Assembly: GCF_009914755.1 (NCBI RefSeq)
Contig: NC_060934.1
DNA length: 64,000 bases
Direction: 5' to 3' (one strand)
Source: the human T2T-CHM13v2.0 reference genome, Homo sapiens
A program made the translations under genes and the position numbers. Within the stretch, counting starts at the first letter, position 1; each line of letters starts with the position of its first letter. The notes below the pieces were generated by a model. The model searched no databases and was not told the DNA's origin. It saw nothing but the letters and a program-made list of their open reading frames with translations. Shown here one piece after another: positions 1 to 3,760 of this stretch.

Positions 1-930
1 ATTCCGCCAGTGGCTGGTGCAGAGAACCAGGACCACCACCTTTGAAAAGACCTAAATCAATACTCCAATGGGATCCTGATGTCAAGTATTTAACGACTTT
101 GCTTTACCTACTACAGTAATTAAAATTAAGTCTTCAAACTTAAATTTAAATTTCTAAAAGCAGGAATGCACTGTCCTTAATCTTAAACACCAAAGGTGGG
201 AGAAAGAGGCCAGAATCCTAGGGTACTAGGCCTACTGGTATAGGGCGATCTCTTCTGCTTTTTTCTTTCCACCCCATTTCTTTTCCCTTTCTCCTTTCGT
301 TTCCCATCTTCTCTCTTCTCGTTCTCTTCGAAGTAACAGTGACAAAATTAAGGTGATTCAATTATTCCAAGAGGCTTGCTCATATAAAATATTTCTCTTC
401 AAGCCCTTTCCTGAAATCCCAAATTAAAGCATTTCCAATAGTCTCTGCTTTAAGTATTCCTAGTTAAGTCTACTTTTGGAAATATTAAATATTCTCACTT
501 TGGCACAATATTCCAAAATTCCTTGAGAAGTTCGCCTACGATCAGTCTTGCTAGTAGAAACCTTTTTTTTTTTTTATTTAAAACGCTCGATTTCCACTTT
601 TTACTAGGTTTCCCAATGTTGGCGATGTCTCCCAATGACTTAATAACGTGTATCCACTTCACCTTTGAAAATCTTAGAGGTCAGTGCATCCACCGGCATC
701 CGGGAATTTATTCTTATTTCTGCTTCTTAAACAGGCTCTGGGGAGGAGCAGTTTCGACGGAGAAGTTCATAGCAGCAGTTATTACGGAACTTGCAACAGT
801 TGGTGCCGGGCGATAGGCAGGTTGGAAGTGATAAATGGGGCTGGCGTAAAAAACAAAAAGCCCCGGGGAGGGCGGGGGCAGCCGTGGCCTTGGGGGACAG
901 TGCGAAGGCGGCGCGGGGCCAGCGGGACTG

Positions 931-938
931 ACTTCCGG
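931..938 (-). promoter_or_regulatory. ETS/GABP motif CCGGAAGT
   Basis: ACTTCCGG on + strand, perfect consensus near the 5' edge of the island. Confidence 0.65.
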
Positions 939-1212
939 CTGTGGGAAGGCGCCGTCCCGGGCGGCCAGAGGCGGCGGCAGCCGCGTAGAAGGACGGCGGG
1001 ATCGCAGCCCGGCGGGCGGCGCGCGGGGCGGGTGAGCGGGCCCAGGCCGCCCCCGGGCCACGCCGGGGCCACGGTGAGGTGAGGCCGGCCCTGCCCCCGC
1101 ACCGCCCCCGGCAGGAGGCGCGACGCCCGGGCCGCGGGTGCGTGCGCGGCCCCGGGCGACGCGGCTGGGCGTGCGCGGGGCCGCGGCGGAGGCTGGGCCG
1201 GGCGGGCGGCAG

Positions 1213-1221
1213 AAGATGGCG
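1213..1221 (+). promoter_or_regulatory. YY1-type motif AAGATGGCG overlapping the strong Kozak ATG
   Basis: AAGATGGCG; A at -3 and G at +4 of ATG 1216. Confidence 0.6.
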
Positions 1222-1312
1222 AGGGTGTGTAGGCGGCAGCAATGCTCCGTTGAGAGACGCGGCTTTCGGCAAGAACTGGATTCGTGGCGCCACAAGCTCA
1301 TTCACTGTGTAG
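1216..1312 (+). CDS. LCOR: Exon 1a coding segment [38 protein letters not shown]-homologous N-terminus (uORF or N-terminal extension depending on splicing)
   Basis: Strong Kozak; 97 nt = 32 codons + 1; donor TAG|GTGAGA at 1313; paralog homology from memory. Confidence 0.8.
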
Positions 1313-1954
1313 GTGAGACCCTCCGCCGACCGCCGCCGCCCCTCCGGCCGCCCCGCCGCCGGTCGCCCCAGACCAGGGAGGAAGCTGGGGAAGTGGCAAT
1401 TGCTGCTCCGGCCCGCCCGCCCTCTTTGGCTCGAGCGTCCCCCCTTCCCCCACCCCCCGGAGTGTGAGCGCGCGCGACCTCCAGGCGGGCTCCCCTGCTC
1501 GGCCGAGCGCGCGCCGGCCCCTCCCCTCCGCGCGCCTCCCCGGGGCTGGCTCTCGGCGGGAGCGCGGGTTCCTCCCCCTCCCGCTCTCCATCCCCGCCTG
1601 CTCGCTCCCCTCCCTCCCCGCTCCCGCCCCTGCTCCCGCTCCAGGCCCGGCGCCCCGGCGCCGCCGCCGGCTTATTGTGGCGACTCGCCTCGCGGCGCTG
1701 CCGCTGTACTGGGGGAGGCGCGAGGGGCGCGGGCGTGCTCGGCCCCCACCCGCGCTGTGGCCGCCGCCGTCCTCCTCCTGCGCCACCCCTCCCCCACGCG
1801 CGGGGCGCGCCCCCGGGTCTGCGTGCACGCGCGGCGGGCTGCAGGCGGGCGCCCGGCGCTCGGGCGTGTGCGAAGCGTGAGGTGGAGATGGGGGCGGAGG
1901 GAGCTGGAGCTGTCACAGTCCCCGGGTGCGCCTGACCGAGCCAAGTGGGGTGTC

Positions 1955-2031
1955 ATGGCCGCGGGGGGCAGCGGCTGCACTTCCTCAGCGGGCGGCGGTG
2001 GCCGGGGAGTTAATCCTCGACGCACGGGTCG
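1955..2031 (+). CDS. LCOR: Alternative first exon 1b coding segment MAAGGSGCTSSAGGGGRGVNPRRTG-R
   Basis: GTCATGG Kozak; 77 nt = 25 codons + 2; donor TCG|GTGTGT at 2032; phase matches the only open frame of exon 2. Confidence 0.55.
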
Positions 2032-2318
2032 GTGTGTGCGTATTTGTGTTCGGTGTCGTGCTGCGGGAGGAGGGGGTGGGACCGGGTCCGACCGAGGAGC
2101 CCCGGCGGGGGTCGCTCTCGTCCCCTCCCGGGGATTGGCCGGAGCCGCAGCCTCGCCCGAATGCCCCGTCCGCCCCCCGCCTCCCGGACCTTGGGCCGCC
2201 CTCGGGTGGCTTTTTCCCTGCGGGCCGGAGGGAGCGCGGACGGGGGCGCCCCGGGAGGGGCCGGGCGGCCGAGCTGCGCCTCTCACACTGTGTGTTTTGT
2301 CTGTTTTTCTCTCCCAAG

Positions 2319-2392
2319 GTCCCGTTTCCCTCTGTGCGGCGGCCGGCGGGACCATAAGGGCTTAACTCATATATTTAACCCCCCTCCAAAAA
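2319..2392 (+). other. LCOR: Exon 2 (74 nt), frame-switching exon
   Basis: Pyrimidine tract ctgtttttctctcccaag|G and donor AAA|GTAAGT at 2393; stops at 2355-2357 and 2363-2365 in two frames; third frame open (SRFPLCGGRRDHKGLTHIFNPPPK). Confidence 0.88.
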
Positions 2393-3760
2393 GTAAGTGG
2401 CCCGTGTGGTGTCTCCGCTCCGCCCGCCGCCCCCTAGCCCCAGTCCATCCTTGTGTCTGACTCTCCTGTCCTCCAGCATTGTTACTTCCCCGTCTTTGCT
2501 TCGGTGCTGCTGGTGTGTGGGGAGATGCCCTCTCGTCGTCCGCTGTCCCCCACGCCCAGTCCTCGGGGAGGCCCAGAATTCCAGCCCCTTCTCCCCCAGG
2601 GGAATATTCTTGGGAACCAGGTCTTTCCCGGCAGAATCTAGGAGAGTCTATCCGTTCGCTTGGGCCCCTCATTCCCTCCTTCCCGACAGGGTTTCGTTGG
2701 AAGGAATTATGCAAATCCTGCTTTCTGGTGTCCATTCAGCGGCAATTTCATGCGGTGAGAAGTTCTCTTTGTTGTGCGAGGGGGAGAACAGACACTGATT
2801 TAATAGACATATCTGTTGGGGGGAAGGGTGGAGGGGGTGTGGAGAGGCTCAGTTTGGAAGAATTACAGCACTTGGTTAGCTCAGTGTCTTTGTGTTTGAG
2901 CCTTCTGGCTTGACAGGAGGGTCTGCCCTTTACAATGTCCCACAAGGGATGTTTTCGATAATAGATTAAAAAGCAAAATTGAAACTTTAAACAAGTGAAA
3001 AATCAGGTAACCTTTACTTAAAGAATATACGCCTTTCCATTTCTACAGGGTTTCATTACGAAAATGTATAGCGTGAGTTTCGTTAAGGATTTAGACTGTA
3101 ACACCGAAATTAATATAGGCAACAATGCTTTAAGGTATCTGATACCAGTTTGGTTGTCCAAAGGTTAAAAGTGCATTTTCAAACATATGCTTGTGCAAAT
3201 AATAAAGGCATGAGTCAGTTTTTTGGTATAATTCGTCTCATGAATATATTTTAAAATTCCCCTCCTGCCAATCCAAGACCAGTGCTGCCCTCCAGGAAAC
3301 AAACAGCCTTTTGCCTATCAGTTATCCTGTACTCTGCTCTATCTCTGCTTGTTTTATTCTTTCAAAGTATTATTATGCATGTACTAAAATGTTACGTCGG
3401 TTTAAGTACTTTTTGAATTACTTGGTATTTCGGACTATCATAGAAGAGAGCATATAGCAGGTTTTGAGAAGCATGAAATTAATGCGTTTTCAGAATTGTG
3501 GGTTAGTATCAAATGCTGGAATTGTTTTGAAGAATTTTTAGTTCTTGTATGTTTTACATTTGTTAGTGATTGGTTTTTTCAGCAGGGCTTTTTAGTCTTT
3601 GAAAGATTTTTAAATTTATAATGTAGTCCTGTCCTGTAGATTTTCTGAGTTCCATGTTGCTTTAATTTAGATGGTTTTAATTAGTGTATCTTATTCTAAT
3701 TCTCTTTGCATTTAATCCTGGGCTCCTGCCTCAGGACCCCATTTTTTCAGTCATTGCTAG

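What the first reader, a model, noticed from the sequence alone, without database searches (positions are those of the whole stretch)
1216..1312. Exon 1a encodes a hidden LCORL-homologous N-terminal module
Seen: an optimal Kozak ATG and the peptide [33 protein letters not shown], ending exactly at a strong donor. Its composition is unlike the Pro/Arg/Gly noise of the surrounding island ORFs. From memory, LCORL reads [38 protein letters not shown], and canonical LCOR starts much further downstream at MQRMIQQF. Retained similarity between ancient paralogs implies protein-level selection. Using recalled exon sizes, skipping exon 2 would add about 140 residues in frame (unverified).
Basis: partly seen in the sequence, partly recalled or inferred. 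Interest (0 to 1): 0.85.

Follow-up and report, generated by a model that had tools for sequence, protein, structure and literature searches.

The report
Unannotated conserved N-terminus of human LCOR
The first exon of human LCOR, annotated as untranslated, holds the ancestral start codon of a 142-residue N-terminal module shared with LCORL, which a small 74-base exon cuts off from the annotated protein in the reference transcript.

Summary
ATG 1216 (A at -3, G at +4) opens 32 codons plus one base and ends at the annotated donor G|GTGAGA (1312/1313). A six-frame search of the whole genome finds only this exon and LCORL exon 1 (69% identity, E 1.3e-9). LCORL exon 1 ends at the same codon phase.

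The downstream "5'UTR" exons are intact with GT-AG sites. They lie outside the window at 76181-76246, 76584-76663, 113015-113147 and 117910-117959. If the 74-nt exon 2 (2319-2392) is skipped, they add 142 residues in frame to the annotated Met. That ORF is 221/221 identical to a gibbon RefSeq model. With exon 2 included, the frame stops at TAA 2363-2365, leaving a 47-codon uORF.

Vertebrate LCOR and LCORL proteins from fish to primates begin with this peptide. All 13 invariant alignment columns lie in the module. No Pfam family, confident fold or paper covers it.

Use of the extended form in human tissue was not testable here. The module is already present in ortholog gene models but missing from the human reference, so this is an annotation gap with functional consequences, not a new kind of element.

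The parts
1211..1312 (+). LCOR exon 1a (RefSeq exon 1 of NM_001346516.2). The annotated transcription start is only 5 nt before the ATG.
   Evidence: Gene table supplied with the finding; sequence.
1216..1312 (+). Ancestral start codon, 32 codons and the first base of codon 33 (Gly) of the LCOR/PALI1 N-terminal module. The module continues in four exon pieces outside the window (continued window numbering, all with AG/GT sites): 76181-76246 (66 nt, (G)[21 protein letters not shown], with a paralogous LCORL exon at chr4:17955151-17955216 minus); 76584-76663 (80 nt, (D)CEPESISDWTFDENCLFCCLRRDKVK); 113015-113147 (133 nt, GHLVGL...NAVFYRK); and 117910-117959 (50 nt, (D)SPWVSDPNIPLVAREI, directly before the annotated AUG at 117960).
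   Evidence: for exon 1a; for the pieces outside the window.
1313..1318 (+). Splice donor GTGAGA, at phase 1. This is the same position and phase as the LCORL exon 1 donor.
2319..2392 (+). Exon 2, 74 nt, with AG/GT sites (polypyrimidine acceptor, GTAAGT donor). It breaks the frame when included and is unique in the genome.
2363..2365 (+). TAA stop of the exon-1a ORF when exon 2 is included. The result is a 47-codon uORF.
1858..2027 (+). Alternative first exon of other LCOR transcripts. It bypasses exon 1a and so cannot encode the module's first 32 residues.
   Evidence: Gene table supplied with the finding; sequence.

Best explanation
Exon 1a carries the ancestral initiation codon and first 32 codons of LCOR (and of its long PALI1 splice form). 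With four downstream exon segments now labelled 5'UTR, it encodes a 142-residue N-terminal module. This module is homologous to the annotated N-terminus of the paralog LCORL and is the best-conserved part of the whole family.

In the human reference transcript a 74-nt exon (2319-2392) is spliced in after exon 1a. It shifts the frame and stops translation 15 codons later. Annotators therefore start the protein at Met143 of the ancestral ORF, in the middle of a conserved block. What remains of the exon-1a ORF is a 47-codon uORF with a strong start context.

Transcripts that splice exon 1a directly to the next exon would give proteins of about 575 aa (LCOR) and about 1,700 aa (PALI1). Exon 2 would then act as a frame-breaking switch between the full-length protein and an N-truncated, uORF-burdened one.

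Shown here: the homology, the intact human ORF, the splice sites, the exon-2 stop and the conservation pattern. Inferred: that human cells make the exon-2-skipped mRNA and the extended protein, and that the module is a helical, Cys/His-bearing interaction surface.
For: - Paralogy inside the human genome. Exon 1a matches LCORL exon 1 (69% identity, E 1.3e-9; 2 of 2 matches genome-wide). Both have the same last ten bases, CACTGTGTAG|GT, and the same phase. The next exon matches chr4:17955151-17955216 over 22/22 residues.
- Codon signature. In codons 11-32, differences at positions 1/2/3 are 3/3/11 of 22. Six identical residues use different codons. Ungapped flank identity is 27/97 upstream and 33/97 in the intron.
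- Intact human ORF. All five pieces have AG/GT sites and no stop in 221 aa. The extension is 142 aa and is 221/221 identical to gibbon model P0036. Identity over the 142 residues is 142 to capuchin P0046, 141 to cat P0031, 129 to a marsupial, 126 to platypus, 100 to a Danio LCOR and 78-79 to LCORL.
- Database models. 333 proteins at E<=10 among 334 candidates. Named NCBI models 'ligand-dependent corepressor isoform X2/X4' of 574 aa (a cluster of 340 members) and 1,693-1,702 aa in four primates begin with the identical 33 residues.
- Representative search. 149 representatives at E<=0.001. The other 5 are 3 genomic read-throughs and 2 unrelated repeat proteins.
- Constraint. All 13 invariant columns of the 91-sequence alignment lie at residues 5-70, and 8 of them lie in exon 1a. 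In 20 of 20 full-length comparisons the extension is more conserved than the rest of the protein, for example 69-74% against 46-63% for most fish LCOR rows, and 55% against 36% for LCORL-like P0186.
- Conservation stops at the donor. The figures are 32.8/33 then 19.4/33 in 19 mammal read-throughs, and 26.9/33 then 6.7/33 in 30 others.
- The exon-2-containing leader (505 nt) holds 5 upstream AUGs. One opens a 49-codon uORF ending 14 nt before the annotated AUG. This is unlike an ordinary leader.
Against: - The human gene table supplied with the finding lists four transcripts, and the selected one has no coding part in the window. That reference transcript includes exon 2, whose splice sites look strong.
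- I had no access to human RNA-seq junctions, Ribo-seq tracks or proteomics.
- The five supplementary files of the paper analysing the 7,264-ORF human Ribo-seq catalogue contain no 'LCOR' entry and not the peptide's first ten residues. So the uORF is not in that set.
- Among mammals the 33 codons upstream of the ATG are almost as conserved (31.5/33, 13 rows). Mammal-only identity therefore does not separate coding constraint from promoter constraint. The case rests on birds, fish, the paralog and the codon pattern.
- AlphaFold2 gave only low to moderate confidence for the module, so it may not be an autonomous fold.
- Some models lack parts of it: the initiator Met in two Suina rows, and the 66-nt exon in 6 models.
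- No orthologous DNA was available, so no dN/dS or PhyloCSF score was computed.
Confidence: 0.8

Rival explanations
1. In humans the exon-1a ORF now works only as a uORF. Exon 2 is constitutively included, ribosomes translate the 47-codon peptide and stop, and this (with the other upstream AUGs) merely throttles translation of the 433-aa and PALI1 proteins. The extension is an ancestral coding remnant no longer made in people.
For: - The reference transcript contains exon 2, with a polypyrimidine acceptor and a GTAAGT donor.
- The uORF has a strong start context and ends at TAA 2363-2365.
- No human transcript in the supplied gene table codes in the window.
- Published LCOR work uses a 433-aa protein (passages of PMC5562849).
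Against: - The 142 codons show no stop, no frameshift and no lost splice site.
- They show no amino-acid difference from capuchin and gibbon models and one from cat. That is hard to reconcile with neutral drift on the human lineage. This step is an inference; no rate test was run.
- Primate RefSeq models splice exon 1a directly to the next exon.
- The uORF itself is absent from the 7,264-ORF catalogue files.
Confidence: 0.2
2. The conservation is non-coding. The ATG sits in a promoter or initiator element of the CpG island (the sequence resembles the recalled YY1/TISU motif) and under an antisense lncRNA. Gene predictors in other species simply took the longest ORF.
For: - The 33 codons upstream of the ATG are 31.5/33 identical in 13 mammal rows.
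- The annotated start site is 5 nt before the ATG (gene table).
- GAAGATGGCGAG resembles the recalled TISU consensus. This is recalled, not tested.
Against: - In three bird rows the upstream identity is 9-12/33, while the peptide keeps 25-26/33.
- Fish and the paralog keep the peptide but nothing beyond the donor.
- Differences concentrate at third codon positions.
- The downstream exons, 75-117 kb away, continue the same frame and are also conserved.
Confidence: 0.03
3. It is a chance ORF in a GC-rich island with a fortuitous resemblance to LCORL.
For: Long ORFs are common here: 10 ATG-ORFs of 32 codons or more in 3 kb.
Against: - The genome-wide six-frame search returns only the paralog, at E 1.3e-9.
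- 147 related representatives were found: 149 at E<=0.001 minus 2 repeat proteins.
- The exon boundary is identical to that of LCORL.
Confidence: 0.01

Closest known systems
Annotated N-terminus of LCORL / PALI2 (human chr4 paralog)
   Same: Same exon 1 end and phase. 22 of 32 residues are identical in exon 1 and 78-79 of 142 over the module. The invariant residues are the same: C5, C10, R18, L21, W24, L28, C31, G33, E35, I37, G40, W64, C70. The second exon is also paralogous.
   Different: In LCORL the module is part of the accepted protein. In human LCOR it is annotated as 5'UTR because of the intervening 74-nt exon. The central part (the 133-nt exon) is too diverged to match LCORL in the genome search, which found only the exon itself.
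RefSeq and UniProt models 'ligand-dependent corepressor isoform X2/X4' of other vertebrates (574 aa and about 1,695-1,702 aa; fish LCOR 603-686 aa)
   Same: They begin with the same 33 residues and carry the same extension. The human ORF is 221/221 identical to the gibbon model.
   Different: They are automatic predictions in other species. The supplied human table has no such transcript, and I found no paper describing the extension.
Upstream ORFs and frame-breaking cassette exons that switch N-terminal proteoforms
   Same: With exon 2 the exon-1a AUG opens a 47-codon uORF ending before the main ORF. Without exon 2 the same AUG starts the long protein.
   Different: Here the uORF's first 32 codons are an ancient, strongly constrained protein segment and not a young regulatory ORF. 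Regulated use of exon 2 is not shown.
Classical C2H2 zinc finger
   Same: Invariant C5 and C10 and nearly invariant H26 and H30, spaced C-x4-C (C-x2-C in some fish LCORL) ... H-x3-H.
   Different: The Cys-His spacer is 15 residues, not 12 (12 is recalled). There is no Pfam hit at E<=1. AlphaFold2 puts residues 8-30 in one helix at low confidence. It is not filed as a zinc finger.

Membership tests
LCOR/LCORL (Mblk-1-related, PALI) N-terminal module | Sequence homology of the exon-1a peptide to the LCORL N-terminus. | tested here: met
   69% identity and E 1.3e-9 in the whole-genome six-frame search. 149 representatives at E<=0.001.
LCOR/LCORL (Mblk-1-related, PALI) N-terminal module | Same exon boundary and codon phase as the paralog. 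| tested here: met
   Both exons end ...CACTGTGTAG|GT with one base of the Gly codon. The next exon aligns 22/22 residues end to end.
LCOR/LCORL (Mblk-1-related, PALI) N-terminal module | In-frame continuation through the downstream exons to the conserved IPLVAREIM...QF block. | tested here: met
   A 142-aa open extension with AG/GT sites, 221/221 identical to P0036. It requires omission of exon 2.
LCOR/LCORL (Mblk-1-related, PALI) N-terminal module | Protein-level constraint (synonymous excess, conservation ending at the splice site). | tested here: met
   Position 1/2/3 differences of 3/3/11 in codons 11-32. Identity drops from 26.9/33 to 6.7/33 at the donor. The extension is more conserved than the rest in 20 of 20 comparisons. 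No formal dN/dS was run.
LCOR/LCORL (Mblk-1-related, PALI) N-terminal module | Expression and translation of the extended form in human cells. | not testable with these tools
   No human transcript, Ribo-seq or proteomic data were reachable. The catalogue supplement has no LCOR entry.
Upstream ORF (uORF) | An AUG upstream of the main ORF on the same mRNA, with a stop before the main AUG. | tested here: met
   In the exon-2-containing leader the ORF has 47 codons and its stop ends at leader position 149 of 505.
Upstream ORF (uORF) | Ribosome occupancy. | tested here: inconclusive
   Not listed in the five supplementary files of PMC10032668. Other catalogues could not be opened.
C2H2 zinc finger | C-x2-4-C-x12-H-x3-5-H spacing (recalled) and a profile match. 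| tested here: not met
   The spacer is 15 residues. There is no Pfam family over the module at E<=1 in 4 proteins.
TISU / YY1 initiator element | Match to the recalled consensus SAASATGGCGGC close to the transcription start. | not tested
   GAAGATGGCGAG at 1212-1223 matches 10 of 12 positions of a consensus I only recall. No scan or control was run.

The most novel reading that the evidence does not exclude
Human LCOR and PALI1 are normally made, at least in some tissues, as the 575-aa and roughly 1,700-aa forms. The 433-aa and PALI1 constructs used in essentially all functional work would then lack the family's most conserved domain. That domain is an uncharacterised Cys/His-bearing helical module that mediates a conserved interaction. 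One speculative possibility rests on a review reporting that the cofactor NOL4 bound strongly to mouse LCORL and only weakly to the short LCOR (passages of PMC5343783). In this reading the 74-nt exon 2 is a regulated switch between the two forms.
Probability: 0.3. Interest if true: 0.75.

Novelty: new member of a known kind. Interest (0 to 1): 0.6.

Why it matters
LCOR is studied as a nuclear-receptor corepressor in breast cancer, and PALI1 as a PRC2.1 accessory subunit.

- **Constructs and domain maps.** The LCOR work I saw uses a 433-aa numbering (passages of PMC5562849). The PALI1/PALI2 domain description I read does not mention this module (PMC8864842). Both therefore appear to start at what is Met143 of the ancestral protein. 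If the 142-residue module is made in people, interaction screens and knock-in tags have missed the part of the protein under the strongest constraint.
- **Variant interpretation.** Variants in four "5'UTR" exons would be missense or nonsense changes.
- **Regulation.** Exon 2 inclusion would be a previously unnoticed control point.
- **Annotation.** This is a concrete candidate for adding a coding transcript to the human reference.

Tried and rejected
- **Fold assignment.** Two AlphaFold2 runs gave only helices. The 574-aa marsupial LCOR with 91 rows had mean pLDDT 52.8, with the module's ten-residue blocks at 45-79. The 231-aa fish N-terminal fragment with 36 rows had mean pLDDT 42.6. Foldseek against PDB matched only the C-terminal HTH domain (2cob, E 1.1e-6); every other hit had E>=0.7. 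I ran no further fold searches on such low-confidence models.
- **Family assignment.** Pfam covered nothing in the module at E<=1 in 4 proteins. The ESM Atlas returned only LCORL isoform clusters at 0.81-0.85.
- **Zinc-finger reading.** Considered and not adopted; see the membership test.
- **Paralog DNA.** I used database proteins and own-genome searches instead. The 133-nt exon finds only itself in the genome.
- **Repeat origin of exon 2.** Rejected, because it is unique in the genome.
- **Literature.** Searches for LCOR with uORF, N-terminal extension or ribosome profiling, and for four peptide strings, found nothing on this extension. The PhyloCSF paper mentions LCOR only for the merger with C10orf12. 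Its searched supplements list only that exon; 8 supplementary files were searched, and files 1 and 8 were reported as not searched.

Full report
**1. What is in the sequence**

At 1216 there is an ATG in the context cagaagATGg (A at -3, G at +4). It is followed by 32 codons reading [32 protein letters not shown] and one further base. The sequence then reads GTGAGA. Position 1312 is the end of RefSeq exon 1 in the gene table supplied with the finding, and the annotated start of that exon (1211) is only 5 nt before the ATG.

The stretch stands out from the CpG island. Its GC content is 0.577, against 0.875 upstream and 0.801 downstream. Its P+R+G+A content is 0.28, against 0.44-0.46 in all six frames of bases 1-3000. 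An open frame by itself means nothing here: there are 10 ATG-ORFs of 32 codons or more in 3 kb.

**2. Paralogy within the human genome**

A six-frame search of the whole 3.1-Gb assembly with the 33 residues returned two places. One is the exon itself. The other is chr4:18003949-18004044 on the minus strand, at 69% identity and E 1.3e-9. That locus reads ...[32 protein letters not shown] and is followed by GTAAGA. Both exons end with the same ten bases and the same phase, with one base of a Gly codon.

The codon comparison has a coding signature. In codons 11-32 the two genes differ at 3, 3 and 11 of 22 first, second and third positions. Six identical residues use different codons. The three replacements in codons 13-32 are Q/R, K/R and I/M. 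Ungapped identity in the 97 nt on either side is 27/97 and 33/97.

**3. The rest of the module in human DNA**

I fetched the remaining 104 kb of the gene. The first annotated coding exon is open upstream of MQRMIQQF and reads ...DSPWVSDPNIPLVAREIM.

The N-terminus of a gibbon RefSeq model (P0036, 1,702 aa) maps onto five human pieces, given here in continued window numbering:
- 1216-1312
- 76181-76246
- 76584-76663
- 113015-113147
- 117910 onward

All five have AG/GT sites. Joined without exon 2, they give an ORF with no stop, in which the annotated Met is residue 143. The first 221 residues are identical to the gibbon model. Over the 142-residue extension, identity is 142 to capuchin, 140 to macaque, 141 to cat, 129 to a marsupial, 126 to platypus, 100 to a Danio LCOR and 78-79 to LCORL. 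The 66-nt second piece also has a paralogous exon in the LCORL locus, at chr4:17955151-17955216, with 77% identity over all 22 residues. The 133-nt piece finds only itself.

**4. What exon 2 does**

Exon 2 (2319-2392) is 74 nt long, has a polypyrimidine acceptor and a GTAAGT donor, and is unique in the genome. When it is included, the exon-1a frame reads on as GPVSLCAAAGGTIRA and stops at TAA 2363-2365, which makes a 47-codon uORF. The resulting 505-nt leader contains five upstream AUGs. One of them opens a 49-codon uORF that ends 14 nt before the annotated AUG.

**5. Relatives elsewhere**

- The word-indexed search was run with the peptide plus 8 read-through residues, because 33 aa was below that tool's minimum. 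It gave 333 proteins at E<=10 among 334 candidates.
- Named hits include NCBI 'ligand-dependent corepressor isoform X2/X4' models. One is a 574-aa cluster of 340 members. Others are 1,693-1,702 aa in Sapajus, Macaca, Nycticebus and Symphalangus. Fish LCOR models of 603-686 aa also appear. All begin with the peptide.
- The exhaustive search of 1.84 billion representatives gave 149 hits at E<=0.001 and 57 at E<=1e-10.
- Of the 99 session proteins of 450 aa or more, 88 run from the peptide into the GFESILEG exon, and in 82 of those the peptide lies at the very N-terminus. Six models skip that 66-nt exon. Three are genomic read-throughs. Two are unrelated repeat proteins that matched through a short QQ..SVERRG repeat.

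**6. Strength and limits of the conservation**

In a 91-sequence alignment of LCOR and LCORL, all 13 invariant columns are at residues 5-70: C5, C10, R18, L21, W24, L28, C31, G33, E35, I37, G40, W64 and C70. Eight of them lie in exon 1a. In 20 of 20 full-length comparisons with the marsupial protein, the extension is more conserved than the annotated part.

Many database 'proteins' are prokaryote-style ORF calls on vertebrate contigs that read through the donor, and they serve as a natural control.
- In 19 mammal rows, identity to human is 32.8/33 before the donor and 19.4/33 after it.
- In 30 fish, bird and paralog rows, it is 26.9/33 before and 6.7/33 after.

One caveat applies. The 33 codons upstream of the ATG are also 31.5/33 identical in 13 mammal rows, so the promoter is conserved too. 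Only the deeper comparisons separate coding from promoter constraint; in three bird rows the upstream identity is 9-12/33 and the peptide identity 25-26/33. I had no orthologous DNA, so no dN/dS or PhyloCSF score was computed.

**7. What the module might be**

No Pfam family covers it; only HTH_psq and DUF4553 are found elsewhere in the proteins. The ESM Atlas returns only LCORL clusters.

AlphaFold2 predicts helices at about residues 8-30, 34-42, 45-56, 98-122 and 136-156, with block pLDDT of 45-79 in the full-length run and lower in the fragment run. Foldseek matches only the known HTH domain, 2cob.

The invariant F17/L21/W24/L28 spacing suggests an amphipathic helix. The invariant or nearly invariant C5, C10, H26, H30, C31, C70 and C73 suggest possible metal binding. 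However, the spacing is not that of a classical C2H2 finger, and nothing here tests metal binding. Both ideas are inference.

**8. Literature**

- Passages of an LCOR paper use a 433-aa numbering (PMC5562849).
- Passages of a PRC2 review describe PALI1 and PALI2 domains (CTBP binding, NR box, PRC2-interacting region) without this module (PMC8864842).
- Passages of a review of the Mblk-1 family report that NOL4 bound strongly to mouse Mlr1 (LCORL) and was a minor interactor of Mlr2 (LCOR) (PMC5343783). This is compatible with, but no evidence for, a role of the module.
- The PhyloCSF paper mentions LCOR only for the merger with C10orf12. Its searched supplements list only that exon; 8 supplementary files were searched, and files 1 and 8 were reported as not searched.
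- The supplements of the paper on the 7,264 Ribo-seq ORFs contain no LCOR entry.
- Searches for LCOR with uORF, N-terminal extension or ribosome profiling, and for four peptide strings, found nothing about the extension.
- Supplements of one further paper were closed and one paper is not held. Catalogues there may bear on whether the uORF is translated.

**9. Verdict**

Exon 1a is the ancestral first coding exon of LCOR. The human genome keeps the whole 142-residue module intact. The reference annotation hides it because the reference transcript carries a frame-breaking 74-nt exon.

The module is not new to databases, since ortholog models and LCORL have it. As far as my searches reach, it is absent from the human reference set and from the literature. 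Whether human cells make the extended proteins, and how often exon 2 is skipped, is the open question, and it can be answered directly with existing public data.

Noticed in passing
Database proteins P0029 (Sus scrofa) and P0030 (Catagonus wagneri): These two Suina models read ...GDAAGVCRRQQC where other mammals have ...[13 protein letters not shown]. The initiator Met of the module seems to be replaced there. The models are 5'-incomplete, so an upstream start or a sequence error is possible.
   Followed up: no
Database proteins P0042, P0043, P0087 (sciurid LCOR) and P0190, P0231, P0233 (LCORL); the human exon is at 76181-76246 in continued numbering, outside the window: Models in both paralogs skip the 66-nt second exon of the module in frame (HCV-E/D-CEPE). 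This exon seems to be an ancient in-frame cassette.
   Followed up: partly
Bird rows P0161, P0164, P0167, P0172 and P0206: The bird LCOR exon-1a peptide is unusually diverged (25-26 of 33, with changes in the otherwise constant GFRQELD stretch). One long model joins HC directly to the fourth exon piece.
   Followed up: no
Window 1117-1215 (the 33 codons upstream of the ATG, same frame): This non-coding stretch is 31.5/33 identical in 13 mammal read-through ORFs. It is a very strongly conserved core promoter or leader. It also lies under the antisense lncRNA LOC102723665 (-455..1371, minus) listed in the gene table.
   Followed up: partly
Window 1212-1223: GAAGATGGCGAG around the start codon resembles the TISU/YY1 initiator motif as I recall it, and the annotated transcription start is 5 nt upstream. 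If real, the start codon would be read without scanning from a very short leader.
   Followed up: no
Exon-2-containing leader, continued numbering 113015-117959 (outside the window): A second sizeable uORF of 49 codons (context gtctggATGa) starts in the 133-nt exon and ends 14 nt before the annotated AUG. It would hinder initiation at the annotated start on any transcript that contains these exons.
   Followed up: partly
Window 1956-2027 (alternative first exon 1858-2027): By eye on the sequence, this exon carries its own ATG at 1956, and 24 codons run to the exon end. Joined to exon 2 or to the 66-nt exon, the frame soon stops. Transcripts from this start therefore also carry a uORF and cannot encode the module's first 32 residues. 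This was read by eye and not computed.
   Followed up: no
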